This document shows positions 3,508-30,666 of a stretch of 30,666 bases of DNA, piece after piece. Position 1 is the stretch's first letter, and every line of letters begins with the position of its first letter. The position numbers were made by a program, and so were the translations under genes. Source of the DNA: an uncultured Pseudomonadota bacterium. Lineage in GTDB: Bacteria > UBA10199 > 2-02-FULL-50-16 > JAJFLM01. The DNA is taken from positions 8,677 through 39,342 of the forward strand of contig CAZXZM010000001.1 of the NCBI GenBank assembly GCA_964645365.1, in the 5' to 3' direction. Below the pieces are notes generated by a model that had not been told where the DNA came from, made no database searches, and saw only the letters and a program-made list of their open reading frames with translations.

Positions 3508-3522
3508 TGGCCTCTGCCTTGC
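3508..3522 (+). promoter_or_regulatory. sigma54 (RpoN) -24/-12 promoter candidate for the giant ORF
   Basis: TGGCCTCTGCCTTGC has TGGC and TTGC with exact GG-N10-GC spacing. The predicted start site is ~3534, about 21 nt before ATG 3555. Confidence 0.55.
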
Positions 3523-3554: not shown

Positions 3555-3671
3555 ATGGACCGGATTGGATTCAAAATACCCCTTTTTTTTCTCCTCCTCG
3601 TAGGGTTTGTCGTCCTGACCGGTCAGGAAAAATTCTCCGGCGGTGGCGGGTGTAGCTGCGGCGGCAAGAAG
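3555..3671 (+). other. N-terminal signal peptide followed by GGGGCSCGGKK motif
   Basis: Basic n-region (R3, K7), hydrophobic h-region (I8-L21), then TGQEKFS-GGGG-C33-S-C35-GGKK. Confidence 0.7.
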
Positions 3672-6600
3672 TCGGAAGAGGGAGAGATCGTCGGGCCCCC
3701 CACTGGCCCTGGAGCGGAGACCCCCTGCAAATTTGATAGCAACTGCAGCACCGGACAGATCTGTTCTGCTATTGGCAAGTGCACCGTACCGGCAGAATGT
3801 AGCCTTGATGTCGATTGTCCCGAGGCAAGTCAGATCTGTTCCAAGGGATCTTGCATCGAGAGTGGTGGGAGTTGTTCCGCCGACTCTGACTGTCCGGTCA
3901 ATCAAAGCTGCTCCGAGGAGAGCTGCGTTGGTGGGGGAACCAGCTGTTCTATCGCCGCTGATTGTCCCGATGGGCAGGCCTGCCGCGAAGAAATCTGCAG
4001 TGTCATTGGGGAGATTCCCTGCTCCCTCCATTCCGAATGCCCGCAAGGAGTTTATTGTTCGCTAGGAGAGTGCGCCCCCGGCCTCGATACCTGCACCACT
4101 TCGGAGGAATGCCAGGCGGGAACGATCTGCCTGAATGAAACCTGCGTCCCGACCGGCGGTGGATGCGATGAGCATAGCAATTGCGCGCTCGGTTCCTATT
4201 GTGAATCGGGAGACTGTGTTCCAGCCGGCCTCCCCTGCACCGCCCCCAATCAATGTCCGACTGAAACAACCTGCATCAATGGGGGATGTATCGAAGGGGG
4301 GGAAAGTTGTGACGAACATACCGACTGTCCCGAAGGGCAGAGCTGTCAAGACGGGACCTGTGCCATCGGTGCAGAAGATTGCACGATCGATGAAGAATGC
4401 GGCGTCGGCAATGAATGCATCAATGGTGTCTGTGTCACCGGTGAAGTCCCGCCGCTCGAAGATAATCAACCACCTCAATTTTTAAACCCCGGTAACAAAT
4501 CGGTCGTTGCCGAAGAGTCTTTGAGCTTTACATTGGAAGCGACTGATCCCGACAGCGATCCATTGCAGTTTGCAATGACCGGCCTGGAGGGAACCGGGGC
4601 CAATCTCGATGACGAAAATGGGGAATTTTCCTGGACACCAGCTATCGGTCAGGCCGGCAATATCTTCAATGTAATCTTTATCGTCAGTGATGGGACCGAA
4701 AGTGTCGAACAAATCATCACGATTGAAGTGCTCCCCCTCCTCCCGGTTGGCGAAGGGGTCGAAGGGGCCCTCATCGGTTATGCGGTCAATCCTGGTACAT
4801 GCGGTCTCTGGAATGAATTTTTTGAAGACGTTGGTGAAGGGGCCTACACGGGCCTCCTCTATGACCTCACCCAACCCTGTACCGGTACCGTCAATACCTT
4901 TCTCGTCGATGGACCGACAACCAATGCAACCAATAACCTTTCGGTTATTTTGCTGCCGGCCGCCACACTCCCGGAAATTCGCGGGATCGTCCAAGGGGAT
5001 CAAGATGTCGATGATACCCCCCGCGTTTATCAAGGAAGTCCCTCCCTGCAACTCTATGCCCAGGTGACCAATGCCCAAGGGCAACCTGTCGGGGCCAATA
5101 CACCGGTCGCCGTCGATCTGTTGATTGCGGATATCTCCAAGGCTTCGGCTGCTGGGATCTATCAAGCCGGGGGGATCTTCCGAGCGAACCTGGCGGTTCC
5201 CCCGGCTGAATTTCAAGGCGGTGCCGATGTCGACGCCGAGGTGCGAATCGCGGCCGCCGGTCAAGTCATCACCACCCCGGTCCGCCTGAAGGCGCTCCCC
5301 CCTCCCCTTGTCTTGGGAGAGGGACAGGCTGGACTCGTCCTCCCGCAACAACGTTTCTTCGAAGGGCAAGAACTGACCGTGTCCATTCAGACCAATACTT
5401 TTCAGGCGAGTACTCCCCAAACGGTCGCCGGTTTTCAATTTACAGTACGATATGATGCCGACACCCTCGATTTTGTCGGGGTTGAAAAAGGCTTTCACGG
5501 CACCCGCTTCAACGATATCCAACACGTCACAAACGATATCGGTGGTGGCGAAAAGACCGTCACCTTTAATAGTATCCTCAATCAACAGGCCTCGACCGGG
5601 GCCCCGCCGGTTTCGGCGCCGGATGACCCCACCACACCAGCCGATGAACGTCTGATCGAACTCGCCACCCTCACCTTCCGGGCCAAGGTCGATGCCGACA
5701 CAACCGCTTCCTTTTCCGGTGTTAAAAACGAACTCCTAAAAGTGGCGGAAGGGGATACGGCATTAGGGGAACAAGGGGAAGAACTGATCATCGCCGACCA
5801 CGCCGGAGTTGACGACGGTTTGGATCCGACCGGTGAAGTCCAGCTCCTGCAGAAGGAATGGCGTGGCTTATTGAGTTGGCCCACAAATAATGTCCTGATC
5901 GATCGTTCCTGGGCCAATGCGGGCCTGAAGGCAACCGGACAGATTCAGGTGCGGGGGGTCCGTAACGATTCTTCCGGACTGATCGATGCAACCGGCGACG
6001 CGATTTTCGGCCCGGCCGTTCCCGACTTTATTCAATGGACCGCAGCTCCTGGATCCTTTGAAGCGAGTGCCACCGGTACTCAGGATATCACCGTAAACCA
6101 TGAGGGATTTTCCAATGACCTGCAGGTTCGCGTCTTTTACGCCGATCCCGCCGATATCTTTGCCGACACCGATCATGAAACCTTCGACACGACACTGAAC
6201 AAAATTGCAGGCACCGACGAATATCAAAATACCCAATTGCGGATTGTCTGGACCCCTTCCGGATTGCTCACTCCTGATGGGGAACCCTTAGAGATTAATC
6301 TTACTCCTCACCTCACCTTTTCTGAAAATGGAAGTGTCAGCTATGATGAAGCAACCGGGCTTGTCTCTGCGATTGCGCCGGGTGCCGGGAGTATCGAAGT
6401 GCAGGGAGCGGGGGGAAGCCTCCCCGATATCCCCTTTACCGTCTCCGACGACGAGGCCGCACTCGATCACCTGCAGGTGGCGACCGCGGCCAATCTCTTT
6501 TTACAGATCGGTAGCAATGGGAGCCCCCTTGACGATCCAATCCCGGTTCCCGCCACCGTTGGGACGACACAGGCCTCCCAGATCCATTCCTTTGTCACCA

Positions 6601-9600
6601 ATCAGTTCGAGTCGCTCGATCAAGAGGCCCCGATTACGGTCTGGGCCCATTTCACCGATGGGAAAAAATCTCTTTTTACCAATCGAGTCGATCTAACGAG
6701 TGACGACACGAATACCGTTGTGGTCGACGGAACCCGTTCGGTCGCTACGGGACATGGTTCCACCTTTGTCAATGCCAATCACCCCGCGACGGGGCAGACT
6801 GCGAAAGGGAGGATCGGCGTCACTCTCCCTGAAATTGATTCACTCACGATCACGACCGATCATCCACGGATTGCACGAAACGACAACGATCCTTCAGCGC
6901 TGCTACTGGGACTCCCCATCGAGACGCAGGCCCATGCCACCGTTAATTTTCAGGGGGGTGGAACCTGGGAGGCAACGACCGATGATCGCGCCACCTTCGA
7001 GGTGATCGAAAATAGCACACTCGCTTCGATCAATAATGATGGGGACATCACATCACTCAACGCCGGCGGCGGTCGTGTCAAGATCCGCGCCACGCTGCAA
7101 GATATTCCGAATCCTGGAGAAATCCTCACCGCAACCAAGACCTTTTGGGTGATGACCTTAAAGGATCTTGAGATCCGTACCTGCGAAGACTTTACTTATC
7201 CCACCGACGCCAATCAATTTACGCCAGCGATTGGCGGAAGTAGTTGCGTTGTCGACAGCACCTCGACCTACATTGAAGGAACGAATGATCGTCAGTGGAT
7301 GCGCCCAAGCATTGAGGGGATCTGGAGTGACGACACCCGTATTGATCTCCTCAATTTAGACCATGCTGACAATCTGCTCGAACACAATCTGGAATCAGCA
7401 GAAGCAAGCGGCCATTTTGACCTCCTCCATCCAGAGATGGGGCTGTGGCAGATCGCTCCTCATACCATTACGCCCGATGAAGGCTTTGCCCTGACTGCAG
7501 AGTATCCCCTCATCCCGGGACCGGACGTCGATATCTCCCATACCATTCACATTAACAACGATCGCGTCGAGATCACCCAACTCTATTTGCGCGGTACCGA
7601 TGGCATCTCCGGAGGAATGACCGATAGCGATGTCACCTTCAACGATACCTTTTCCGGTATCAAAGAGAGTGGCGTTACAAACTTGCGCGTTGTCGCCCAG
7701 ATGTCCGACGGCACACGGCGCCTAGTCGCCAGTGAAGGGGCCCAAAATACCACCACGGGGGGACCCTTGCTCTCCCTGGCACTGAACAACCAAGACCTTC
7801 CCCATCAGCCGGCCAGCGCCCCCAGCGATTATGCCAGCCTTGAAGATCCGATCGGCGGGGCGCTCATGATTCGTGGCAACGGCGGTGTCACCCTCACCGC
7901 CGATCTTTCGAATGATTCTGGAGATGACTATCCGGGGCAAGACTATGTGGTGGCGGCCAACCTGACACCGGCGACCGGCGATATGGACCTCGGAAGTGCG
8001 ACCGGTCGTTTTGTAAAGGTACTCGGTGATGAAGAGACGATCACTGTCCCGGTGCGCCTGAGTACCGGCGCTGAAAACCTTGCCGGCTTTCAGGTCAAGA
8101 TCCGCTACAACGCTGCTGTACTGTCGGCGCAGATTGCCGACATTGTGCCAGGCCCGCTCGCCGGTGAGGCACTGATCAGTAACGTCAATACTTACGCCCT
8201 TACTTCACTGGAGGCGGACGGCGACCCCAACCGCACCGGTGAAATCGTCTTGGTCGGAACCTTTTCACCGGGTCAAGAACCGACCGGCATCTCCGAAGTA
8301 GCCCGGGTCCGCCTTACCGCGCACAAGGGGGACACCCTCTATACCCAGATCACCGGAACGATCCATGCCCTGGTCAATCCGGCGCAAAATACGATCGGAC
8401 CCGTCATTCCAGACGGTGGACGGGTGATGATTGCCGGCTCCGGTTTTGTCGATCCGGGAGTGCTCGGTGACTGTAACGGCGATGGTTCCTTTAGCGTTGC
8501 CGACGTCGTCCACCTGCAACAAATGCTATTATCTTCCCCGGCCTTTAGTGTCGAATGTAATTACACCCAAACAGATTCCCACCTAAATCTCGAGGATGCC
8601 TTCCGTGGCATGCAGATCCTGGCGGGGCTGTTTCATTTTGTCACCACAACTGTCACCGATCTCGGCAATGGCATCTATAAGGTCGATGTCCTACTGCAAG
8701 ATGCCGCCGGCAACCCGGTCACCGACAGCCCGCACCACCAGGTGCGGCTCACGATCGGCTCGATCGAAAACCCGGCCATCAACGGAACCTATCTTGCCAC
8801 GCACGAAGCGAACGGTCATTATACATTTACGTTGCCGGCGTTGACTTATAATGGACAACTTTCGGTCGCGGTCCGCCTGGCGATCTTGGATGATCAAGAT
8901 CCCCCGCATGAAAAAAATGCGGTTCAATTGGGGACACAAAACTTTGCGGCAATCGGATCGGGCGACACCGATAATCCTTGTGATACGGTTACCTGTCCGG
9001 TGGGACTCGCCTGCGACCCCGATAATCTAAACTGTGTCGATCTGTGCGACGGGATCTCTTGCCCGACAGAGGGAGAGGTATGCGATCCGGCCAGTGGGAA
9101 TTGTGTCGACGATGTGATCGATCACTGCGCCGGTGTCTCGTGCGACCCCGACCTCACTTGCAATCCGGCCAGTGGTGAATGTCAGGGGGGGTGTACCGAT
9201 GATAGTGACTGCCCCGCCGGACAGGCCTGCCACAGCACACTTCTTCAATGTGAAAATGACTCCGATGGCGACGGCGACCCCGACTCGGAAGATGAAGATG
9301 ATGACGGAGATGGCATCCCGGATGATGAAGACCCCTGCCCCACCGACCCACTCAATCTCTGCGTCGAAGGACCGACCGACTGTGTTGACGATAGCGATTG
9401 CCCGGTCGACTTTGTCTGCAACGACATCGAACATGTCTGCGAGCCTTCGGCGCTTGTCAACGAAGCCCCCTTCTTTCCGGTGAGCCCAACCGACAAAGAG
9501 GTAATCGGTGGCAACACGTTGACCTTTACGATCGAGGCAATCGATCCGGAGGGGGAAGAGCTCCTCTACTTCATGGATACTTCAAATGATATCGATTGCA

Positions 9601-27600: not shown

Positions 27601-30600
27601 TTTCGGCCTCGACCTATGAAGACTACGACCCGGCCGATCTTCCCCACTATACAGCTGCCGATGGAATCTTTGCCGCAACCGTCGCAGACAACACGATTTC
27701 AAAGATCGAGGGACAGGTAGCTGAATGGCAGCGAGTGCGTCTGGTGATCGAAGGGACCTGGACCGATGGAACGAGCACTTACTTAGGGCCGGTCCAGAGA
27801 GATCAGATCGGAGGCGATTTTGAGATCACACTTCCTGATGCCAATTACGGCCAAGGAGATGTCTTTGATGAAAACTCCGATGATGGAGCGTCTCCTTCCG
27901 GTTGGCCAGGCTCTTACCGATTGACCGCCACAGCAGGGGCGAGCTCAGGGGACATTACGGTTGGTGTCGCTGAACCTTCGGCCACTTCGACACTCGATCC
28001 GGCGACCCACGACATGACCTTTGAAAATAGCGCGACGACCTTTAATCCGGCCGGCACGATCGTCCGGGGTGAACATACCGGAATTGGTAACGGTCTCGAG
28101 GTAGGGATCGATAATGTTCAGGTTGGTGTCATCAATGGCGACGAGGATTTCGATGCGACCCTGATGGGCTTTGCCGGAACGGCTTACCCCTTGACTGTCG
28201 TCGGTCAGTTTACCGATGGAGAACGGATGATTGTGGCGAGCGAGACTAGTAATGTCACCGGCACAGACCTCGTCACCTTTGAGGTGGAAGAGCTCGAACC
28301 ACCGCAGATGGCGGCTGTTGACCTCCCCGCCTCGGTCGCGGTCGATGCCGACGGCAATATCACCCCGAGCGCCAATGGCGCGGTTCGAATCCCCATCAAG
28401 GTCGCCACCACCGAATCGGCCTTAAAAGAATATGATCTCATCTCCAATCTCCATCCAGTCGAAGAAGATCTGGATATCGGCCCGACTGCTGGTCGCTTTG
28501 TTCCGGTCTTGAGTGGAGGTGGGGCTCAACCGACCTTGGCCGTCCGGGTCAATACCGGTGCCGGTAACATCAGTATCTTTGAGTTTGCCTTGAACTACAA
28601 CCCGCAGGTGGTCACCTTTGATGTCGCGGGGATCTCCGGACCGACCGGCTTTACTGTCGAGGCGAATATCGATCCGCCGGATGCCCAGACCGCGGGGGGT
28701 ATCGATAGTGCCCAGTTACTGGTCAGCGGTTCCTATGTCGGTGCGGCCAAGAGTGGCATTGTCACGATTGCAACGATCCCAATCGCCAGTGCCCCCAAGG
28801 GTGGTGATGGTTACTTTGAACTGACCGGTTCGGCAACCACGGTCGTCGATAACGGGGGGCTGACAACGCTCTCAACACCAGAAGTCACCGCAGCAAAGGG
28901 ATGGGTCGATCCTGGCGGTATCAAGAACTATGCCGATGAATCGGGTGAAGGAACCTATGGTCCGTACGATATCGCCCGCCTGAAACAGGATATCATTGCA
29001 GGGATTCAGGCACCATTAGTCGATCAGTATTCCAACGCTCCCGCGACCGAACTGCTAGGTGACTACAATGGTGGGGGCATACAACCGGGCAATCCTGCCG
29101 ATGCCCCGAAAGCGGATTCCTTCGATACCGGTCTGGCGCTCCAAATCAACACCCTCAAATTTCACTTTACCTATCTGACACTGACACCGACCGGAGCAAC
29201 CGGACACTACCTCTTCCGTGCGCACCTCTTTGACAAAACGGGGACCGCGACCTGTGCCAATGGAATCGAATTTGATCATTACGATGTGGGGGTACCCGGA
29301 AATACGATCCTCTTTGACGATGCCATACCGGCCTGTACCGAAACGCTCGCCGAAAAGTATTATGAAGCCGAAGTGACCGTCGCTTACGACGCCACAATCG
29401 GCCTCAAGGCAACGGTGACCACAGAAACCGCAACCGGTTCGAATCCGATTGCCGTCCTCGGCCGTTTTACCGTCCAAGGGGAAGAGGGGGTCCTACCGGT
29501 TTGCCTCGAAGGAACCACTTACTGTGCCGCTTCGGATCAGTGCTGTGAAGGGGCGGATGAAGATATTTGTGGGGGAAGCTGTAGCGATCCGATCTGTCCG
29601 GTCGGCTATGAAATCGACCCGGCCACCGATATCTGTGTCCCGACAACTTGCGTCAATGACAATCAGTGCCCCTTCGATGCCCAATGCACCGACGGGTTCT
29701 GCACCGACGTCTGTGACGGGGTCACCTGCGGTGATGGTGAGTCCTGTTATCCGACCGGTAACCACAATTCTGACTGTGGCGATCCTTGTGAAGATGTGAT
29801 CTGTGCCGCCGACTTTGAATGTGAATTGGTTGGGGATCAGGCAGAGTGCTGCGATGAAGACAACAACTGTAATGAGATCGATAACTGCGAACCGGGAACC
29901 TTCTTGATCGATGATGATCACGACGGCCTCTTTGATCGCTGCGGCATCTGCTCGGAAGGAACTGAATACAATGTCGCCACGGGACAGTGTCTGCCGGAGG
30001 CTTGTGAACAAGCAGCCGATTGTGCCGGCAATGAGACCTGTGATCTTGTTTCCGGTGATTGTATCCCCTGCCCGCCGGGCCAGATCCGTGATCCGGCCAA
30101 CGACAATGCCTGTATTGCCTGTCCCGACGACAGTGATCCAGCCTGTTCACTCGCCTGTCCCGAAGGAACGAGCTGGAACAACAACATCAACGCCTGTGCG
30201 TCTGAGTGCGAAGCGAATGAGCCCTTGTTACTACCGGATGGTTCCTGTGCCAGCTGTCCTGCAGGACACATCTACGACCCAAGCGAAAATAAATGTAAGT
30301 ATATCTTCTGCGAAGAAGACGAAATCGATCCGGGTAACGAAACTCTCAATGAAGCGCTTGATCAAAACCAACTCGAATTGTCGGTCGATTACACCACGTT
30401 GGCCGCAAAACTAAATGCCTTTGAAAACCGCACAATCTTCTTTGTCGCCCCGAATGGCAGCGACACGATTCCGGGAGATCCAGGGGGAGGTGCCACCGAG
30501 GAAGAAGAGACCGCCTATGAAGAAGGTCTGCTCCGCGGCACAGTCGATAAGCCACTCGCCTCAGTCGCTAAGGCACTGGAACTGATCGAGGCCAAGGGGG

Positions 30601-30666
30601 ATTATGAGGATCCCCACTACGTCATCGTCATGCAGGGTGAGTACAACGAAGAGGGGCTCCCGCTGT
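3555..30666 (+). CDS. Giant (>9,037 aa, 3'-truncated) secreted/surface multidomain protein with Cys-rich, TSP3, cadherin-like, Ig-like, cohesin-like and dockerin-like modules
   Basis: ATG 3555 follows an in-frame TGA (3552-3554). Manual translation found no in-frame stop to the window end, and the ORF track contains no ORF in this frame, consistent with it running off the edge. It starts MDRIGFKIPLFFLLLVGFVVLTG and gives coherent domain motifs throughout. Confidence 0.93.
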   Translation, partial: MDRIGFKIPLFFLLLVGFVVLTGQEKFSGGGGCSCGGKKSEEGEIVGPPTGPGAETPCKFDSNCSTGQICSAIGKCTVPAECSLDVDCPEASQICSKGSCIESGGSCSADSDCPVNQSCSEESCVGGGTSCSIAADCPDGQACREEICSVIGEIPCSLHSECPQGVYCSLGECAPGLDTCTTSEECQAGTICLNETCVPTGGGCDEHSNCALGSYCESGDCVPAGLPCTAPNQCPTETTCINGGCIEGGESCDEHTDCPEGQSCQDGTCAIGAEDCTIDEECGVGNECINGVCVTGEVPPLEDNQPPQFLNPGNKSVVAEESLSFTLEATDPDSDPLQFAMTGLEGTGANLDDENGEFSWTPAIGQAGNIFNVIFIVSDGTESVEQIITIEVLPLLPVGEGVEGALIGYAVNPGTCGLWNEFFEDVGEGAYTGLLYDLTQPCTGTVNTFLVDGPTTNATNNLSVILLPAATLPEIRGIVQGDQDVDDTPRVYQGSPSLQLYAQVTNAQGQPVGANTPVAVDLLIADISKASAAGIYQAGGIFRANLAVPPAEFQGGADVDAEVRIAAAGQVITTPVRLKALPPPLVLGEGQAGLVLPQQRFFEGQELTVSIQTNTFQASTPQTVAGFQFTVRYDADTLDFVGVEKGFHGTRFNDIQHVTNDIGGGEKTVTFNSILNQQASTGAPPVSAPDDPTTPADERLIELATLTFRAKVDADTTASFSGVKNELLKVAEGDTALGEQGEELIIADHAGVDDGLDPTGEVQLLQKEWRGLLSWPTNNVLIDRSWANAGLKATGQIQVRGVRNDSSGLIDATGDAIFGPAVPDFIQWTAAPGSFEASATGTQDITVNHEGFSNDLQVRVFYADPADIFADTDHETFDTTLNKIAGTDEYQNTQLRIVWTPSGLLTPDGEPLEINLTPHLTFSENGSVSYDEATGLVSAIAPGAGSIEVQGAGGSLPDIPFTVSDDEAALDHLQVATAANLFLQIGSNGSPLDDPIPVPATVGTTQASQIHSFVTNQFESLDQEAPITVWAHFTDGKKSLFTNRVDLTSDDTNTVVVDGTRSVATGHGSTFVNANHPATGQTAKGRIGVTLPEIDSLTITTDHPRIARNDNDPSALLLGLPIETQAHATVNFQGGGTWEATTDDRATFEVIENSTLASINNDGDITSLNAGGGRVKIRATLQDIPNPGEILTATKTFWVMTLKDLEIRTCEDFTYPTDANQFTPAIGGSSCVVDSTSTYIEGTNDRQWMRPSIEGIWSDDTRIDLLNLDHADNLLEHNLESAEASGHFDLLHPEMGLWQIAPHTITPDEGFALTAEYPLIPGPDVDISHTIHINNDRVEITQLYLRGTDGISGGMTDSDVTFNDTFSGIKESGVTNLRVVAQMSDGTRRLVASEGAQNTTTGGPLLSLALNNQDLPHQPASAPSDYASLEDPIGGALMIRGNGGVTLTADLSNDSGDDYPGQDYVVAANLTPATGDMDLGSATGRFVKVLGDEETITVPVRLSTGAENLAGFQVKIRYNAAVLSAQIADIVPGPLAGEALISNVNTYALTSLEADGDPNRTGEIVLVGTFSPGQEPTGISEVARVRLTAHKGDTLYTQITGTIHALVNPAQNTIGPVIPDGGRVMIAGSGFVDPGVLGDCNGDGSFSVADVVHLQQMLLSSPAFSVECNYTQTDSHLNLEDAFRGMQILAGLFHFVTTTVTDLGNGIYKVDVLLQDAAGNPVTDSPHHQVRLTIGSIENPAINGTYLATHEANGHYTFTLPALTYNGQLSVAVRLAILDDQDPPHEKNAVQLGTQNFAAIGSGDTDNPCDTVTCPVGLACDPDNLNCVDLCDGISCPTEGEVCDPASGNCVDDVIDHCAGVSCDPDLTCNPASGECQGGCTDDSDCPAGQACHSTLLQCENDSDGDGDPDSEDEDDDGDGIPDDEDPCPTDPLNLCVEGPTDCVDDSDCPVDFVCNDIEHVCEPSALVNEAPFFPVSPTDKEVIGGNTLTFTIEAIDPEGEELLYFMDTSNDIDCIGLGLEIPVEVFDETTGEFSWETTVADICDHTVTFIASDGINETEATVEIRVLPDPGDIIDPLDLVRGARVDFESNPGLWTGDWWREEIGNDNGYYDGHLIRLAKPGNGSITARLTGGDPEPNQSQNIAIAGEPARAFLITNRNEVFAEDAQVGAFAFVTDSQGRPIANTTVTFTVGANSFAANPVPTETGIYYRSLTLTGTSSITLQVAGVAEQPSQDITFVPNATPLNLPDERVGIPLPQRKLYENESFTVPVLVNTGTKNLVAFRIALNIGTDFEVTAIVKGAGIDSDATTFGALSTIPTTLPTDNSITFGSALSQGVAPQGTVEVARVTFRAKSAIANLPKTITFTGTALELKGQTTSGAEDILAGNGQPVLFADHTGTTDASGALRVEPNAAEGIFAYASEPYVLNATPLLASPDGTGNVITKVIHRLSANAVETLPAANADSYASSDDGVVTIDDNGNYQGVATGEANLEISYQSFDFDEIGVVSSVISNDEIAVEASDLILNLITGTDPPTYQTGQVHTYWEVPDRQQANGTPVQIDLTESASLSYLSDGCVTLDAAITGLVKNNVAVAAADCGTVTVSNGADDLATLNFSISDETKTPEAFITVPAWVGIHDAPDVPVLASSELNYSTQTTTARVTDVFTEYEQEIPLRVSLEFADDGDVRMEVTEEATAFSSDDEAIATVDGATKQATGLASGITTLRASYNDIEAIGRIKGDIPIPDVNINGCVNIARTAEDPAALLKGLATESTITVTLPNGDNITDQLSFTVSAGADVIEVFDDNSYRSLETTGGPFTITIETDGFLGIPNQTCTAFVMTITDLAAEATEDYDSGNFNNRVPDSYYSLIEGTAHHQRGRLLIEATWSDESTSLIGPDEEALLNSVAGGDNFNFSGDDHVDRLPVATAAAGSWPTGYWQLVPTAAPHTDIVTVTLDDIVAAPITTQKTIATANDRTNVTDLIIRGSAPTILNHVPRFETFDATMALVAGNSSDLNVDALFGGDRTDATDAAVTGNPRYRLATEGSQTIADFLVTNVVEEKFTGQPDAPDLPATVEGNGTVIATRNGVDVVTWTLDPDQDATLSKEYRAAVNLKPGGKDVDLGAETGRFVKVFSNGQTMSLTLSANTDGEDLTGYEVHLFFNPAVLTVDPDSLANAPDGTSGVSLIDHPTDTNPDLQRELILAGTINLPYPSGTVNLGTLDFVADGDKDHAITLFTGTSKLPTEEEPGATANPLVAASGWVDPAPFKNYCADAALYDINDVSCLQIDVLNDGANDALGDYNANALANMYDVFLGLQIVLRKNHFTSLEQPAPNQLEVRVVNNQDDPVTTGSEVTLTIVDNQTPANTVTFNDGSNSVSGTTVEDAGTGLFTAQLNPLQHNDMVTFNVGLTTTLASGTYTFSYDQPLAITGTDGDLTCTLDGGECGEDQLCVDTNADGVVDSCHGGDSCTSDLECTNGQICTDGTCQGGEVCTTNSDCSDNQVCSAGSCTGGNDCSDDGDCSTGQQCVNETCQGGGICTTDGDCAGGSVCDPLQGLCLFPDGECDSNEDCVGDQVCDPATNACSDPGGSCIADIYCPVPGEICLGGTCQGGGGCTNDSECPLAEQSCVDGTCEGGETCEEAADCGDQLTCSAAGTCVPDEDNDDVPDEIDNCPGLANPGQEDGDDDGVGDACDTDNSCTTDEECPADQICNTAADNPECVIGPDGDGDGVTDTKDNCSDDSNADQADDDLDGIGNECDDEISGEPVWGAKLSALTQKVRAATGVDTVGEWKGHFDDHHFTIGPAEDGNYSSELLNLTPAGQGKTRTSVEEGPQSSFQGYAIAPAQSELQQKTTRGTVAENLPDTLYKAQRLTADRQPVATGQSHNFSPGNAAANPASDTTDDNGFVESLLTIADAQFTGPADGNAAIGTETITARARPAVADCGGDICIWLETSFIPIFPNGNLTVPIVLNAGAETIDNFDVQIDFNTTDLEFVGIESSLPNFVSNPNPNIDGYSRFTAFDIGAGGSNTVLATLTFRGNALGDGETTRSTDLSGTIESLYAEGNIEVTGATFRVRDADGFHFNPAEVTVNQPVLRELFAWSSQPVIYQGLGEPTYDIIAQALREDGEMIDVSEEIETSEDDVTNDDGTISRTVTITHPDCEDCEASFTIQIYPISELNLIIDDVVLGQVTNLPGTPYQHTPHRVEAVYADGTTRELRSETALVLTPEGADPGAVNVDVANGLIQGDSVGIVTVSLPDSYVAGGIQSVAVTVNDDPIPLTELHLVVPASIGANLNTIPAAPNRRALEAQVTSVFTAIETDPDAASPNPDAQTTLRLLGLAADPAEAPQDISALLETDDIEITPDAAGIVAIEDRTITATGPGQVNLSTKLVGTGITDPNTIVDVILPEGELIVKKLPGNEEIPTTGAIKLALEPGDITETLKGYQAEERYQVFAQFASSAPINVTATAIYQKIDPNDRYTQTLDGDELVLTSNETSAGPAQLQITALGLSRTIPVDVVTLQAMELTMRAPYPETEGAPPKTTLFKIENSSAYQWVRAWAFALLTDGDRVDLFSFKENPNLNLDVIGTASLSPESRWFVRGANAGNATVTVGWTGYEDKTDSVGLTVTNTQADITALVIDSPQFSAGNNAVSPATDKTLSIPDERSAPFSVLATYTPDGTQALPIRSDDQTVEVPNLLTLTSNDLKTGPPDEYTLENYLSFDDGVPEESALTIHENGAVELNVTINPIVNFATETSTTLNVATNIALTLGDVDLGETVGVPFPDRSGELFEIPVFIKIGNSNGERALSNFDIQINYDPEVLSIAHADGTFGLTAYQDPAGAISLGTDLVGKSYSLQPGADPDLGRVNLVLWSTGSNSANHAVIEVARIRFKALKPVGNEVTLITGTLNGLYDSTDAAIPVAGTLPRAIVAGAGELDPPGTPRGDLTGNNLFSSEDVQAIQNALVSGAAGSLPLPDADCWPDEVINSNDPSMCAKIIAGQAPFMDFTFEYPYQSDQGRVRLQTTLTDNADGNIDATAARVTYQISGTPYTGNELATFSSNVFEKILTDLDTAGDLEVIVQVEGLSAGGDVLWSHHYMGTQPVRTIAINPGDLDPDEDEDGDGVDNGTDNCPFTFNPGQEDGNGNDIGDACDDCAPTPDGDGDGVGDACDNCADIPNLDQIDEDHDAIGNACDNCLSISNNDQANSNGNLIGDACEGLDQDDDGDGIPNGEDNCLDVANPDQDDGDEDGIGDLCESCTQTSECATGLVCVAGTCTDEGGSCTPETVDTDCAPDQICIDGACDGGGACDDTSDCPLGDQVCHEGTCVSLCPNGTPAIDGECEPSETGAPSFVGLTNETTRIAGETVDITFTVEDPDGPDETLVEMSSVEGTPDHSTFATIPDLATHTTEGHLVWTTVLEDIGDYHLTFTATDDDGHETLATLTIHVIENPALGGLPVVGAKVSFDSDPSTMARWEERWWDQETAADGQYIGPFGGLFQTGSFDLLGQIDGSLFQADSAEVLRDQREVTINETPTNGFLIAATPEVFQEEADGSGEAQIFAFLTDALGRPYDDEDFTVTVTGAGGANATLTHLDTEEGVYGGSITLPAGQFPNDDYELTLTAPVLAGPPATLLDLVTYSAPPNIPDEFLRAELPQGKFAPNEIFDVPVYVNAGGSNLASFTLTVNFDDRLELIDNSGFKVTAGPGIDPINNGTLTINPDSVTFTGTIGATAAPITGLHALVTTLHFRVKSDAVLPSDVVTTFMSGTIASAQAKVGSGFEDLDSNGEDLLLSDHTGTSDADGDLRLIPDAMQGFFAYASLPVLMHDVAPGNDPLATESGSLITRVVYHSSSDELGEIPVGATVVYHSGDSGIVAFEDASERFYHAVSTDTTTIDVTIDGETSAPTTVRAIAPAIEDFHIELGDTTLSKISGGDDFQTTQGHLVWTVPGVTRPDGTTPLTFDLSAKIKQWNLTEATVGVVTVVDDDGMVTVDPTSESGSVTLQAIGEGPTSEAGDDEIITERTIAIDADTPVAVSDLIIAVPASVLMTEDPTLHADLQNMGTATAMIYATNAFTKYGREAPITYWALFGETVDHDDDPATAPIEVRMPLTGDDLDADLAIDEVSGQQLFDETFISDNNNNKLKVTAACPTGEEATCDTNVNATYRGTTYSTPLYVAIIAPDVDIIGDTLLARSADDLSATLYNPPLPVSTQLEIQNHETEQDITSHFSFSIAPEQQNIATTTPEGLVTADAAGPGGEVTVTIHNEDGFLGILDQTYVIQVITLESLTPEVYEDYDPATRPGYNPATGEKFASAHSETVLQLVEQGGDKWQQARLCLKGTWNNGVTFYLDDAAVVLNEVSGEGLSGDLEIEIPGVFSLEATDANPDSNWPGCWRVTTDSATADPFTVSLTGDSVAEDFNDIAITLTADATDGNHVQVDDLEIRGRGGINNQTVDIASDTGMLSADATFKATVDSTANLWIKSTFSDNARFVLVDDNDQVFDGFVLFNDFAEIPLPNPAPAAAPSATISVDGQLRIDANGAVGMTVALAADLAPAYSRPHRIANNLLPTNDGDVDIGPTTGRFMPVLGGAPIPIRINVGAGSFDTTTIEIDYDPRVLLFNTASYTPAANIAWIPKNEPTSVETMTTATDAPCPADPSDPCEATFTLTAWSTAASAPTGTITLGTIQVIGRKFPGHTVTELTGNATTSLADATEVTKDPIVAGTGWVDPPGLKDYANADGLHTPGDVTQLLIDINNPAIGGTGVSDLPDGHGGWLGDYDDSGTANASDVLLGRQILSSWFYFHDITTTGGDGNYTLNIQLLNKNNVAITTGTTVTVDVTNMNPLNTVLFDGAASATMTPDDPFTIPMTVTYNDSITLRFELAVDVGGSTGTNSTYVYRTLSFDGSSGNPPLCPEDKEYCADFDQCCDSGCGDAGSCVDVICPAGQQLVGDGCVPIPCAGNDDCPYNATCSSGVCIDVCDESIAPACSDGESCQPGPGHTGICDDPCSGVVCSGDLTCQVIDEELQCCDADGDNCEEIVCGMGLVALDDDQDGTIDQCGTCIEDTVYNETTHQCEPYEPCGVNEVFVDGLCCDEAIPFVVDGQCCDSADGLGACEGSECPEGQSYNEDAESCQCPDGSTPAEGPCPLNTDPVFMQPALTTYSVLPDQVVNFVVNAFDSDGDTIVYSMSENDPLLIPDESFDPDTGIFNWTATDAAIGNHTLEFTAQDVNPDGDPIGDGTIRTVTIQVTDGTVAGEAVFGAHVVFTTVRDDGFAKGRWDGIWWEDDGTPDGHYTGHLLDLAFPGTESIGAQALEGITTETNALDIILNSDATRGHLVLARNDVYPDDSMLSVYALVTDDFGRPYHGNAVITVETAGHGSETLTKAPGKPGIYEGLLTLNGFDAVDQPITAILKAGGVTLLNTAGAADEEQALTLKETVEDLNLVAGHAGLQIPKRPYSPNETFDVPLYIDTNGLGLFSFSIDVTFDSSRVEFTGNKITLVAGFDPINPATLHAETDTITLLSGSASNQLVGAGKQLLGTLHFRVRNGAAIAPVNFSGTATELFYSASGAQTPLAGHGQALQLADGGGNGSGDLALVGTELRGILAHAKDSQLFGTVLGGLSLPNDLTQSSIQLYKVENNGTLSLVAAGSATCNDTADKVSDACVNFAATTEGIAILEVEYSEHGGTKTIDNLQVQVDWIEGNSIDAGGDIELATDDSDGTIKKLGGTDSYPKVHTHAIWHRGDGVRLDLTSHTTLTSTDNAVFTVSDGIITVQGTGSANLEGLGANLPLTVVDEIEDFNIEVAVPAHVAMESVTTPVNLAGIDTDGRGTSEVIASVVNTFTHLDDEAPVTVSAISVDGSRFDITDEVIAAEGLSIGDDSLVDFKADDSNIVIPKTTGEHTTTVTAEYASKLPVSSNVHLNITAPPTTLNGCEPVARSNDDASAKVLGLPISRELSVTYNGGADTIPTGNINFVVTSGSELVKTTEVEGSQQLEDNNIVEVEDDLDTGGIVVIELEVNYLGFPNQVCTLPVMTLTGLSASTYEDYDPADLPHYTAADGIFAATVADNTISKIEGQVAEWQRVRLVIEGTWTDGTSTYLGPVQRDQIGGDFEITLPDANYGQGDVFDENSDDGASPSGWPGSYRLTATAGASSGDITVGVAEPSATSTLDPATHDMTFENSATTFNPAGTIVRGEHTGIGNGLEVGIDNVQVGVINGDEDFDATLMGFAGTAYPLTVVGQFTDGERMIVASETSNVTGTDLVTFEVEELEPPQMAAVDLPASVAVDADGNITPSANGAVRIPIKVATTESALKEYDLISNLHPVEEDLDIGPTAGRFVPVLSGGGAQPTLAVRVNTGAGNISIFEFALNYNPQVVTFDVAGISGPTGFTVEANIDPPDAQTAGGIDSAQLLVSGSYVGAAKSGIVTIATIPIASAPKGGDGYFELTGSATTVVDNGGLTTLSTPEVTAAKGWVDPGGIKNYADESGEGTYGPYDIARLKQDIIAGIQAPLVDQYSNAPATELLGDYNGGGIQPGNPADAPKADSFDTGLALQINTLKFHFTYLTLTPTGATGHYLFRAHLFDKTGTATCANGIEFDHYDVGVPGNTILFDDAIPACTETLAEKYYEAEVTVAYDATIGLKATVTTETATGSNPIAVLGRFTVQGEEGVLPVCLEGTTYCAASDQCCEGADEDICGGSCSDPICPVGYEIDPATDICVPTTCVNDNQCPFDAQCTDGFCTDVCDGVTCGDGESCYPTGNHNSDCGDPCEDVICAADFECELVGDQAECCDEDNNCNEIDNCEPGTFLIDDDHDGLFDRCGICSEGTEYNVATGQCLPEACEQAADCAGNETCDLVSGDCIPCPPGQIRDPANDNACIACPDDSDPACSLACPEGTSWNNNINACASECEANEPLLLPDGSCASCPAGHIYDPSENKCKYIFCEEDEIDPGNETLNEALDQNQLELSVDYTTLAAKLNAFENRTIFFVAPNGSDTIPGDPGGGATEEEETAYEEGLLRGTVDKPLASVAKALELIEAKGDYEDPHYVIVMQGEYNEEGLPL
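3726..4433 (+). repeat. Ten tandem ~24-aa four-cysteine repeats C-x5-C-x(5-6)-C-x(4-5)-C
   Basis: Examples: CSADSDCPVNQSCSEESC, CDEHTDCPEGQSCQDGTC, CTIDEECGVGNECINGVC. Confidence 0.9.
4464..4733 (+). other. Cadherin-like / He_PIG-type Ig domain (unit 1)
   Basis: NQPPQF...FTLEATDPDSDPLQF...GEFSWTP...FIVSDG...ITIEVL. Confidence 0.75.
5340..5740 (+). other. Cohesin-like domain A1
   Basis: GQELTVSIQTN...VAGFQFTVRYDADTLDF...ELATLTFRAK follows the cohesin consensus (tVpV...gfqf.i.YD...L.f ... la.ltFk). Confidence 0.65.
7980..8430 (+). other. Cohesin-like domain B1
   Basis: TITVPVRLSTGAENLAGFQVKIRYNAAVL...GISEVARVRLTA. Confidence 0.65.
8466..8630 (+). other. Dockerin-like module 1
   Basis: GDCNGDGSFSVADVVHLQQMLL (canonical first F-hand loop plus helix), followed by a degenerate second repeat, TDSHLNLEDAFRGMQILAG. 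Confidence 0.7.
8979..13840 (+). repeat. Super-unit 2 of the mega-repeat
   Basis: Follistatin-N-like CDGISC/CAGVSC repeats and a TSP3-like acidic stretch (8979-9440), cadherin-like (9459-9758), FVTDSQGRP (~10071), cohesin A (~10317-10680), Big_2-like SSDDxxVxxxD repeats, cohesin B (12894-~13310), dockerin-like (~13338-13499). Confidence 0.8.
13845..18858 (+). repeat. Super-unit 3 of the mega-repeat (most divergent; no cadherin-like domain)
   Basis: About 9 four-Cys repeats (13845-14501), TSP3 repeats (14508-14810), Big_1-like TDDNG motif, cohesin A (~15380-15720, LTVPIVLN...FDVQIDFNTTDLEF), cohesin B (17838-~18320, FEIPVFI...FDIQINYDPEVL), dockerin (18354-18521). Confidence 0.75.
18354..18521 (+). 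other. Dockerin-like module 3
   Basis: GDLTGNNLFSSEDVQAIQNALV ... ADCWPDEVINSNDPSMCAKIIAG gives two loop-helix repeats. Confidence 0.7.
18861..19280 (+). repeat. Thrombospondin type 3 (TSP3)-like Ca2+-binding repeats
   Basis: DEDGDGVDNGTDNCPFTFNPGQED, DGDGDGVGDACDNC, DDDGDGIPNGEDNCLDVANPDQDDGDEDGIGDLC. Confidence 0.85.
18861..24230 (+). repeat. Super-unit 4 of the mega-repeat
   Basis: TSP3 block, 3 four-Cys repeats, cadherin-like (~19560-19860), FLTDALGRP (~20199), cohesin A (~20472-20830), cohesin B (23220-~23670), dockerin-like (~23697-23889, LGDYDDSGTANASDVLLGRQIL). Confidence 0.8.
24234..29495 (+). repeat. Super-unit 5 of the mega-repeat
   Basis: Cys block (24234-24935), cadherin-like (24939-25241), LVTDDFGRP (~25557), cohesin A (~25848-26180), cohesin B (28467-~28895), dockerin-like (~28920-29150). 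Confidence 0.8.
29502..30311 (+). repeat. Sixth Cys-rich block, paralogous to 24234-24730
   Basis: Aligns by eye with the unit-5 Cys block (YCxxxDQCC, CPxG, CPF/YxAxC, DGESC, DPC, ECC/QCC, DDDxDGxxDxCGxC). Confidence 0.85.
30435..30666 (+). other. Start of DUF1565 / right-handed beta-helix (pectin-lyase-like) domain, truncated
   Basis: IFFVAPNGSD...GTVDKPLASVAKAL...VIVMQGEYNE matches the typical N-terminal cap (yV.p.G.D...GT...Pf.ti..A......I.v..G.Y.E). Confidence 0.65.

What the first reader, a model, noticed from the sequence alone, without database searches (positions are those of the whole stretch)
3555..30666. Hidden giant ORF of >9,037 aa absent from the ORF track
One frame stays open for 27.1 kb and is still open at the window edge, placing it among very large bacterial proteins. 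It uses an N-terminal signal peptide rather than a visible T1SS signal. No catalytic domain is recognisable in the first ~8,950 residues. Pipelines needing a stop codon would annotate only spurious shadow ORFs here.
Basis: seen in the sequence. Interest (0 to 1): 0.85.

Follow-up and report, generated by a model that had tools for sequence, protein, structure and literature searches.

The report
Giant modular surface protein gene, truncated
The 27-kb open frame is a real gene for a roughly 9,900-residue, 1-MDa secreted surface protein of an uncultured marine bacterium, built from five ancient 1,700-residue repeat units and cut only by the end of the contig; it is a new family within the already known class of giant bacterial adhesion proteins.

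Summary
Observation confirmed. Window 3555-30665 (+) is one stop-free frame of 9,037 codons, while the other five frames carry 136-533 stops. It ends only because the contig ends.

- **Missing 3' end.** It is very probably G000:C96 (minus strand), an 857-aa 5'-open ORF. Giant orthologues in two relatives (9,627 and 12,096 aa) align across both contig ends with about 24 residues missing. Predicted full length is about 9,918 aa, about 1.04 MDa, pI about 4.
- **Architecture.** Signal peptide plus a conserved GGGGCSC motif, then Cys-rich DUF7107 modules, then five diverged super-repeats (25-35% identity). Each repeat holds Ig-like domains, two cohesin-like modules, one dockerin-like module and Cys-rich/TSP3 spacers. 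A C-terminal right-handed beta-helix (DUF1565) follows.
- **What is absent.** No catalytic domain lies before the helix. There are no RTX motifs and no second hydrophobic segment.
- **Age.** The repeat units are orthologous between genomes of different families, so the array is old and not an assembly artefact.
- **Distribution.** 9 of 93 genomes of its phylum, plus unnamed metagenomic proteins.
- **Reading.** Sec-exported, N-terminally tethered, Ca-binding fibrillar adhesin or self-associating matrix protein with a glycan-binding or glycan-cleaving tip.

Giant proteins of this size are known, so interest is moderate. The scan's first readers noted the same stretch in several other notes.

The parts
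3508..3522 (+). sigma54-type -24/-12-like element (TGGC-N7-TTGC), 32 nt upstream of the ATG
   Evidence: Read from the sequence. Comparable elements lie upstream of the orthologous giant genes in G017 (GGCAT-N5-TTGC) and G031 (TGGCAC-N5-TTGC). rpoN was found in 5 of 5 relatives but not in this 80%-complete assembly. Not tested functionally.
3555..30665 (+). Giant ORF, 9,037 codons, 3'-truncated by the contig end
3555..3659 (+). N-terminal signal peptide or signal anchor (aa 1-23, KD maximum 2.36), followed by a polar spacer and GGGGCSC (aa 29-35)
   Evidence: The same layout is found in G017, G031, P0002, P0003, P0006 and P0007.
3687..4463 (+). N-terminal Cys-rich region, 7 DUF7107 modules
   Evidence: Pfam PF23416, 73 bits, 7 stretches. 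Cys density is 10-16 per 100 aa.
4464..9359 (+). Super-repeat 1 (aa 304-1935): He_PIG, Ig-like domains, cohesin A (aa 604-753), cohesin B (aa 1485-1634), dockerin-like, Ig, Cys-rich spacer
9360..14714 (+). Super-repeat 2 (aa 1936-3720): cohesin A 2262-2387, cohesin B 3123-3258, then a Cys-rich/TSP3 spacer
14715..19421 (+). Super-repeat 3 (aa 3721-5289, shorter): cohesin A 3948-4063, cohesin B 4773-4928, TSP3 repeats about aa 5146-5245
19422..24821 (+). Super-repeat 4 (aa 5290-7089): cohesin A 5649-5761, cohesin B 6565-6711. This is the unit modelled with AlphaFold2.
24822..30404 (+). Super-repeat 5 (aa 7090-8950): cohesin A 7439-7549, cohesin B 8314-8453, long Cys-rich spacer
8442..8639 (+). 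Dockerin-like module 1 (aa 1630-1695)
   Evidence: Family HMM, i-E 3.5e-18. The family profile matches type-I dockerin chains in PDB at E 2e-5 to 2e-3.
13314..13511 (+). Dockerin-like module 2 (aa 3254-3319)
18324..18533 (+). Dockerin-like module 3 (aa 4924-4993)
23673..23906 (+). Dockerin-like module 4 (aa 6707-6784)
   Evidence: The AF2 model shows two helices directly after the cohesin.
28899..29168 (+). Dockerin-like module 5 (aa 8449-8538)
30405..30665 (+). Linker and N-terminal cap of the right-handed beta-helix domain, cut by the contig end. The inferred continuation is G000:C96 6158..3588 (minus strand), 857 aa, ending in a stop.
   Evidence: Alignment A1 to G017 and G031. DUF1565 hit on the C96 fragment. 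This stretch itself has no Pfam hit.

Best explanation
The frame is a genuine, intact gene for a giant extracellular protein of about 9,918 aa and 1.04 MDa, very acidic with pI about 4, from an uncultured marine bacterium with a genome of about 2 Mb. Shown: the protein starts with a Sec-type hydrophobic signal followed by a conserved GGGGCSC motif. It continues with Cys-rich modules and five ancient super-repeats of 1,570-1,860 aa. Each super-repeat holds about ten Ig-like beta-sandwiches, two cohesin-like modules, one dockerin-like module and a Cys-rich/TSP3 spacer. By homology-guided joining to contig C96, it ends in a right-handed beta-helix (DUF1565-type) domain and a short Pro-rich tail. 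Inferred: it is exported by Sec and taken across the outer membrane, possibly by a T2SS-like route, since a secretin is present. It stays tethered by its N-terminus, either through an uncleaved anchor or through a modified Cys of the GGGGCSC motif. It then forms a Ca2+- and disulfide-stiffened fibre a few hundred nm long. The distal beta-helix binds or cleaves a polysaccharide on particles or other cells. The ten cohesin-like and five dockerin-like modules, which have no other partner in the assembled genome, mediate self-association within or between molecules into a surface mesh or cell-cell cohesion matrix. Expression is probably sigma54-dependent.
For: - Open frame and integrity.
- C-terminal join: the only beta-helix match in the genome to the tails of the relatives' giant ORFs is the 5'-open ORF at the end of C96. 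Alignment A1 places the last residues of the window ORF and the first residues of the C96 ORF 23-24 residues apart on both G017 and G031. C96 is held by the same six runs as the window's end, with similar shares.
- Domains: Pfam Cohesin 45.9 bits, DUF7107, He_PIG, Big_2, TSP_3 and DUF1565. AF2 plus Foldseek matches cohesins at probability 1.0 and TM 0.5-0.6 normalised to the target. The family profile matches PDB type-I dockerins at E 2e-5. The rest is a string of Ig-like sandwiches.
- Partners: 5 dockerin-like and 10 cohesin-like modules all lie in this ORF, and none was found elsewhere in the 1.64-Mb assembly.
- Topology: one strongly hydrophobic segment (the 19-residue windows starting at residues 1-8; one borderline window at residue 6015, KD 1.63) and no RTX motifs.
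- Composition: D+E 15.4%, K+R 4.1%, 261 Cys in six clusters.
- Family: the same layout (signal peptide + GGGCSC ... beta-helix end) occurs in G017, G031, P0006 and P0007. Repeat units are orthologous across genomes with 97-100% bootstrap support.
- TSP3 spacers resemble the Myxococcus cell-cell cohesion protein MtsC at 99 bits.
- A secretin is present.
- Sigma54-like elements lie upstream in three genomes.
Against: - The C1-C96 join is inferred from homology. No overlap of 15 nt or more, no read pair and no public contig bridges it.
- There is no expression or protein evidence. The one metatranscriptome listed held none of the sampled words.
- Pfam Dockerin_1 does not hit the dockerin-like modules, so Ca-dependent cohesin binding is not established.
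- AF2 confidence is only moderate (mean pLDDT 61-64).
- The assembly is 80% complete, so dockerin-bearing partners, rpoN and a dedicated secretion system could lie in the missing 20%.
- The GGGGCSC motif is 8-20 residues from the hydrophobic core, which is unlike a canonical lipobox, so the anchoring mode is unknown.
- Whether the beta-helix is catalytic or only binding is untested.
Confidence: 0.7

Rival explanations
1. It is a cellulosome-like scaffoldin. The ten cohesin-like modules recruit separate dockerin-bearing enzymes into an extracellular multi-enzyme complex, and the beta-helix is one resident enzyme.
For: Multiple cohesin-fold modules. The beta-helix fold is common in polysaccharide lyases.
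Against: No dockerin outside this ORF was found, either with the family HMM or with Pfam Dockerin_1, in the 1.64-Mb, 80%-complete assembly. The dockerin-like modules sit in the same chain at a fixed 1:2 ratio to cohesins in every unit. No CBM was detected.
Confidence: 0.12
2. It is a predation or epibiosis weapon like the giant proteins proposed for Omnitrophota. It attaches to a prey or host cell, and the beta-helix tip digests cell-wall or capsule polysaccharide.
For: Dockerin plus TSP3 content resembles the 'Dockerin-type giant proteins' (bioRxiv 10.1101/2023.11.21.568195). The genome is small, about 2 Mb. RpoB is nearest to Myxococcota and Bdellovibrio-type lineages, which include predators.
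Against: No lytic domain was identified. There are no SecA-like or multi-TM regions as in the Omnitrophota proteins. The lifestyle of this phylum was not examined here. This reading overlaps the best explanation and differs only in the target.
Confidence: 0.12
3. It is an artefact: an assembly chimera of related repeats, a decaying pseudogene, or a non-coding open frame.
For: The assembly is a fragmented MAG (193 contigs), coverage is low at about 6x, and the exact protein is absent from a large protein collection.
Against: There are zero stops against 136-533 in the other frames. Repeat units are too diverged (25-35% aa identity) to mis-assemble. Independent runs from two studies agree at 99% or better without indels. 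Unit order is collinear with orthologous units in G031 and G017. Complete orthologues of 9,627-12,813 aa sit inside long contigs of near-complete genomes.
Confidence: 0.03

Closest known systems
Dockerin-type giant proteins of Omnitrophota (West-Roberts et al. 2023, bioRxiv 10.1101/2023.11.21.568195)
   Same: [quoted passage not shown] Most of the sequence is invisible to HMMs and needs structure prediction. The proposed role is attachment to surfaces or cells.
   Different: Those are 30,000 aa or more, come from Omnitrophota, and have C-terminal transmembrane and SecA-like regions. This one is about 9,900 aa and comes from a delta-proteobacteria-like marine phylum. It has a single N-terminal hydrophobic segment, true cohesin-fold modules, a five-fold 1,700-aa super-repeat and a beta-helix tail. 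Direct homology was not tested.
Cellulosomal scaffoldins (e.g. CipA/ScaA of Clostridia)
   Same: Tandem cohesin modules. In CipA/ScaA-type scaffoldins a dockerin sits on the same chain as the cohesins. The best fold matches are cellulosomal cohesins (1aoh, 6kgc, 4fl4).
   Different: No CBM and no partner dockerin-enzymes were found. The cohesins are embedded in long Ig-like arrays, there are Cys-rich/TSP3 spacers, and the host is apparently a diderm (a secretin is present) with a small genome. Pfam Dockerin_1 is not matched.
Giant fibrillar adhesins of Gram-negative bacteria (T1SS RTX adhesins such as LapA, SiiE, MpIBP)
   Same: Very long, acidic, Ca-binding strings of Ig-like domains with a ligand-binding region at the distal end.
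   Different: Those lack an N-terminal Sec signal and carry C-terminal RTX repeats and a T1SS signal. Here there is an N-terminal signal and no RTX motif.
Myxococcus MtsC / MYXO-CTERM TSP3-repeat cell-cohesion proteins (NCBIfam NF047638)
   Same: The TSP3 spacer region hits this model at E 2.6e-28. More distant proteins carrying the same cohesin-dockerin module end in MYXO-CTERM-like tails. The Gly-Cys motif resembles the MYXO-CTERM Cys motif.
   Different: The score of 99 bits is far below the 350-bit cut-off. The Gly-Cys motif here is N-terminal and lies after the hydrophobic segment, and there is no C-terminal sorting domain.

Membership tests
Cohesin domain (Pfam PF00963) | Match to the family HMM above the gathering score | tested here: met
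   45.9 bits against a cut-off of 24.1, best stretch aa 604-687. 25.3 bits on the 270-1000 slice.
Cohesin domain (Pfam PF00963) | Nine-stranded jelly-roll beta-sandwich fold like solved cohesins | tested here: met
   Foldseek probability 1.00 and TM 0.5-0.61 normalised to the target, against 1aoh, 6kgc, 2vo8 and 3ul4. Model pLDDT in that part is 70-80.
Type I dockerin (Pfam PF00404) | Match to the Dockerin_1 HMM | tested here: not met
   No match at E <= 0.01 anywhere in the genome, including this ORF.
Type I dockerin (Pfam PF00404) | Duplicated Ca-binding loop-helix (F-hand) pair of about 60-70 aa, similar to solved dockerins | tested here: inconclusive
   The family profile hits 12 dockerin chains in PDB at E 2e-5 to 3e-3. 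AF2 gives two helices right after cohesin B. Asp/Asn-rich loops can be seen in the sequence (printout). Ca binding and cohesin binding are untested.
Cellulosomal scaffoldin | Separate dockerin-bearing enzymes encoded in the genome | tested here: not met
   None found with the family HMM or Pfam in the 80%-complete assembly.
Cellulosomal scaffoldin | Carbohydrate-binding module on the scaffold | tested here: not met
   No CBM family in the Pfam scans.
T1SS RTX giant adhesin | C-terminal GGxGxD nonapeptide repeats and secretion signal, with no N-terminal Sec signal | tested here: not met
   0 GGxGxD motifs in the 9,894 residues. A hydrophobic N-terminal segment is present.
Omnitrophota Dockerin-type giant protein | Dockerin-like and TSP3 repeats | tested here: met
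   TSP_3 at 62.7 bits. Dockerin-like modules x5.
Omnitrophota Dockerin-type giant protein | 30,000 aa or more, C-terminal transmembrane/SecA-like regions, Omnitrophota host | tested here: not met
   About 9,918 aa. No C-terminal TM segment. The listed RpoB hits are 59-70% identical, the best to Myxococcota, Syntrophales and Bdellovibrio-type MAGs and the rest largely Pseudomonadota.
DUF1565 / right-handed beta-helix (PF07602, PF13229) | Match to the family HMM above the gathering score | tested here: met
   22.4 bits against a cut-off of 20.3 on the C96 fragment, which is the inferred continuation. The same hit occurs in G017, P0006 and P0007, and Beta_helix 29.5 bits in G031. The part inside the window (aa 8700-9037) has no hit on its own.
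MtsC (NF047638) | Score above the equivalog cut-off | tested here: not met
   99.1 bits against 350. Only the TSP3 repeats are shared.

The most novel reading that the evidence does not exclude
The protein is a self-contained 'auto-scaffoldin'. It would be a single 1-MDa chain whose own ten cohesins and five dockerins zip molecules together into a Ca-dependent extracellular mesh or cell-cell junction. It would be tethered by a previously undescribed N-terminal Gly-Cys (GGGGCSC) sorting or lipidation signal, which in some family members sits at the C-terminus instead. This would be a new, non-cellulosomal use of the cohesin-dockerin pair, conserved unit by unit across an uncultured marine phylum.
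Probability: 0.2. Interest if true: 0.7.

Novelty: new variant of a known kind. Interest (0 to 1): 0.42.

Why it matters
The gene takes up about 1.5% of a genome of about 2 Mb. It has been kept unit by unit across different families of an uncultured marine phylum, so it must matter for how these cells meet surfaces, particles or other cells. It shows cohesin and dockerin-like modules outside cellulose degradation, in a chain with no visible partner. It also gives a concrete test case for self-assembly, for a possible new anchoring motif, and for how a diderm exports a 1-MDa Sec substrate. In practical terms, it shows how contig ends hide such genes: here the two halves sit on different contigs of one bin, and the exact product is absent from a 15-billion-protein collection.

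Tried and rejected
- **Continuation on C4.** The 5'-open 2,879-aa ORF at the end of G000:C4 was rejected because its sequence is unrelated and it has no SR or beta-helix similarity.
- **Contig-end overlap.** No direct overlap of 15 nt or more exists between the C1 end and any other contig end.
- **Closing the gap.** Two exact-pattern scans of public metagenome contigs gave 0 hits. The read-laying output showed no loose end at 30666.
- **Apparent join 18327 -> 21444.** It appears in table 5c but rests on matches of only about 18 and 24 nt in short contigs, and it is not listed as a joint. I treat it as a chance or other-organism match.
- **Synteny.** The giant genes of G017 and G031 share neighbours on both sides, but G000's flanks do not (nuoN-like, SprT-like and a spermidine-synthase-like gene upstream; rsmH and ftsI downstream).
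- **NCBIfam.** Nothing beyond the TSP3-containing models.
- **PDB sequence search with the C96 fragment.** No hit.
- **ESM Atlas fold search.** Only generic Ig and cohesin clusters.
- **Naming the phylum.** The listed RpoB hits are 59-70% identical, the best to Myxococcota, Syntrophales and Bdellovibrio-type MAGs, while true phylum members are 72-83% identical and unnamed here. The phylum name was left undetermined.
- **Names for homologues.** All ten clusters looked up are unnamed metagenomic proteins.

Full report
**Observation.** With open-ended frames allowed, the window contains one ORF at 3555..30665 (+), starting with ATG, 9,037 codons long and without a stop. The other five frames of the same 27.1 kb hold 136-533 stops. 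GC by codon position is 0.61/0.47/0.59. The window is G000:C1:8677-39342 and C1 ends at 39342, so the frame is cut by the contig end. The genome is a MAG of 1.64 Mb in 193 contigs, 80% complete. There are no tandem DNA repeats and no N run inside the window.

**Integrity.** The DNA is held by at least six marine or seawater metagenome runs from two studies. Logan contigs of four of them tile window 10667-30666 at 99% identity or better. They show no indels, even depth (about 6x in X1) and 11 SNPs: 3 synonymous, 8 missense and no stop. A two-sided match listed only in table 5c (18327/21444) rests on matches of about 18 and 24 nt, and I disregard it. This check covers only the last 20 kb of the window and uses low-coverage contigs, not reads.

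**Finding the missing end.**
- No contig end overlaps the C1 end by 15 nt or more. The 5'-open 2,879-aa ORF on C4 is unrelated.
- A search of 40 relatives found complete giant ORFs with the same repeat unit. They sit inside long contigs of near-complete genomes: G017 (9,627 aa), G031 (12,096 aa) and G023 (12,813 aa).
- The last 800 aa of the G017 protein hit just one place in G000. That is the minus strand of C96, where an 857-aa ORF runs off the contig end and finishes with a stop.
- The same fragment matches the C-terminal regions of both G017 and G031.
- In alignment A1 the window ORF stops at a motif (…YNEEGLPL) that aligns with G017 …YEENELNL and G031 …YHEQGLTL. The C96 ORF begins (CLQREV…) where G017 has CLRREI… and G031 has CLMRYV…, which is 23-24 residues later.
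- C96 is held by the same six runs with similar shares.

I therefore infer a full length of about 9,037 + 24 + 857 = about 9,918 aa. That corresponds to about 1.04 MDa, pI about 4.05, and about 1.5% of a genome of about 2 Mb. The join is an inference. Two scans of public metagenome contigs for the junction found nothing.

**Architecture.**
- N-terminus: the only strongly hydrophobic segment is N-terminal (19-residue windows starting at residues 1-8, KD maximum 2.36; one borderline window at residue 6015, KD 1.63). After a polar spacer it is followed by GGGGCSC (aa 29-35).
- Cys-rich start: aa ~45-303 are seven DUF7107 Cys-rich modules.
- Super-repeats: self-comparison shows five units of 1,570-1,860 aa at 25-35% identity.
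- HMM coverage: Pfam sees only He_PIG/Big_9, Cohesin (45.9 bits), Big_2, weak Invasin_D3/Big_1, TSP_3 and DUF7107. NCBIfam sees only TSP3-containing models, including MtsC at 99 bits, far below its cut-off.
- Structure prediction: I modelled unit 4 in two pieces, using alignments of units from G000, G017, G031, G023 and P0002. Residues 6440-7060 (pLDDT 64) fold as Ig, cohesin, a two-helix module, Ig, then Cys-rich modules. Foldseek matches solved cohesins at probability 1.0 and TM 0.5-0.6 by target. The family profile hits type-I dockerin chains in PDB at E 2e-5 to 3e-3. Residues 5290-6440 (pLDDT 61) are a string of Ig-like sandwiches plus a second cohesin. Two stretches are poorly modelled, including the Trp-rich part.
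- Module counts: local HMMs built from the alignment find 5 dockerin-like and 10 cohesin-like modules, all inside this ORF and none elsewhere in the assembly. Pfam Dockerin_1 finds nothing in the genome, and Pfam Cohesin hits only this ORF.
- C-terminal fragment: the C96 fragment matches DUF1565 above cut-off and looks like right-handed beta-helix families in the Atlas feature search. G017, G031, P0006 and P0007 have the same C-terminal domain.
- Not present: no RTX motifs and no second strongly hydrophobic (TM-like) segment. No catalytic family lies before the beta-helix.

**Family and age.**
- The cohesin-dockerin-Ig module is found in 9 of 93 species genomes of the organism's phylum, which has a single class. 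The distribution is patchy over five families besides G000's own.
- In 1.84 billion cluster representatives, 79 proteins match at E <= 1e-30 and 558 at E <= 1e-10. Many are 4,000-8,000 aa long. All ten that I looked up are unnamed.
- The closest ones share the layout of signal peptide, Gly-run-Cys-x-Cys and a beta-helix end. In G023 and P0004 the GGGGCSC motif is at the C-terminus instead.
- A maximum-likelihood tree of 18 units pairs units across genomes. G000 unit 3 pairs with G031 unit 5, and G000 unit 2 with G031 unit 4. G000 unit 5 groups with the last units of G017 and G031 (97-100% ultrafast bootstrap support). The multi-unit array therefore predates the split of these families, and each unit has been kept. 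This also argues against mis-assembly.
- The G017 and G031 genes are syntenic; the G000 gene lies in a different neighbourhood.

**Organism.** The listed RpoB hits outside the phylum are 59-70% identical, the best to Myxococcota, Syntrophales, 'Deltaproteobacteria' and Bdellovibrio-type MAGs and the rest largely Pseudomonadota. Members of its own phylum are 72-83% identical. It is not Omnitrophota. The phylum name was not obtainable. A secretin gene indicates a diderm with a T2SS or type IV pilus.

**Mechanism (inferred).**
- The protein is exported by Sec and moved across the outer membrane by an unidentified route.
- It is retained by its N-terminus and forms a long acidic fibre of about 55 beta-sandwich domains. 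The fibre is stiffened by Ca2+ (TSP3 and dockerin-like loops) and by disulfides (261 Cys in six spacer clusters).
- The distal beta-helix binds or cuts a glycan.
- Cohesins and dockerins occur at 2:1 on the same chain with no other partner visible. Intra- or inter-molecular self-association, forming a surface mesh or cell-cell cohesion, is therefore more likely than enzyme recruitment.
- Sigma54-type -24/-12 elements lie upstream of the gene in G000, G017 and G031. rpoN is present in five relatives but missing from this incomplete assembly.

**Comparison with known systems.** Proteins of this size are known. The West-Roberts preprint calls proteins of 10,000 aa or more 'large' and reports up to 85,804 aa, including 'Dockerin-type' giants with dockerin and TSP3 repeats proposed to mediate attachment. 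More than 41,000 proteins over 5,000 aa are catalogued. This protein shares the general kind. It fails defining features of Omnitrophota Dockerin-type giants (size, TM/SecA regions, phylum), cellulosomal scaffoldins (partner enzymes, CBM), RTX adhesins (RTX/T1SS) and MtsC (score).

**Verdict.** The gene is real, ancient and nearly complete once C96 is joined. It is a new variant within the known class of giant bacterial surface proteins and is of moderate interest. The same stretch was also noted by the scan's first readers in other notes: the super-repeat, the cohesin/dockerin count, the beta-helix switch, the Gly-Cys motif and the sigma54 promoter. I tested these here to the extent stated.

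Noticed in passing
window 3508-3522; L012 (G017) and L011 (G031) upstream of their giant genes: Sigma54-type -24/-12-like elements lie 30-135 nt upstream of the giant gene in three genomes of different families: TGGC-N7-TTGC, GGCAT-N5-TTGC and TGGCAC-N5-TTGC. rpoN is present in five relatives but was not found in this 80%-complete assembly.
   Followed up: partly
window 3639-3659 (aa 29-35); N-termini of G017, G031, P0002, P0003, P0006, P0007; C-termini of G023 and P0004: A Gly-run followed by C-S/G/T-C is conserved just after the signal peptide in the closest family members. In two others it sits at the extreme C-terminus instead. It is too far from the hydrophobic core for a canonical lipobox and is reminiscent of the Cys motif of MYXO-CTERM.
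   Followed up: partly
G000:C4, minus strand, from the contig end (2,879 aa, 5'-open): This is a second very long open frame in the same genome. It is unrelated to the giant protein and has no obvious repeats. It was not scanned against any family library.
   Followed up: no
L012-L014 (G017) and L009-L011 (G031): The giant genes of G017 and G031 share neighbours on both sides: a flavoprotein upstream, and a Zn-dependent phospholipase C-like gene, a GAF-GGDEF cyclase and LytB downstream. The G000 copy sits between a spermidine-synthase-like membrane protein and, on C96, the rsmH-ftsI cell-division cluster.
   Followed up: partly
P0027, P0033, P0038, P0049 (hits): More distant proteins carrying the same Ig-cohesin-dockerin-Ig module end in MYXO-CTERM-like tails (Gly/Cys motif, hydrophobic helix, Arg-rich end). 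This suggests the module is shared with Myxococcota-type surface proteins.
   Followed up: no
window ~19860-20100 (aa ~5438-5516) and its equivalents in other units: A conserved Trp-rich stretch (GLW…WW) between the He_PIG domain and the next Ig-like domain is modelled with pLDDT below 50 and matches no family.
   Followed up: partly
window 12887-30464: Eleven single-base variants occur between sequencing runs, eight of them missense and none a stop. This indicates closely related strains in different marine samples.
   Followed up: yes
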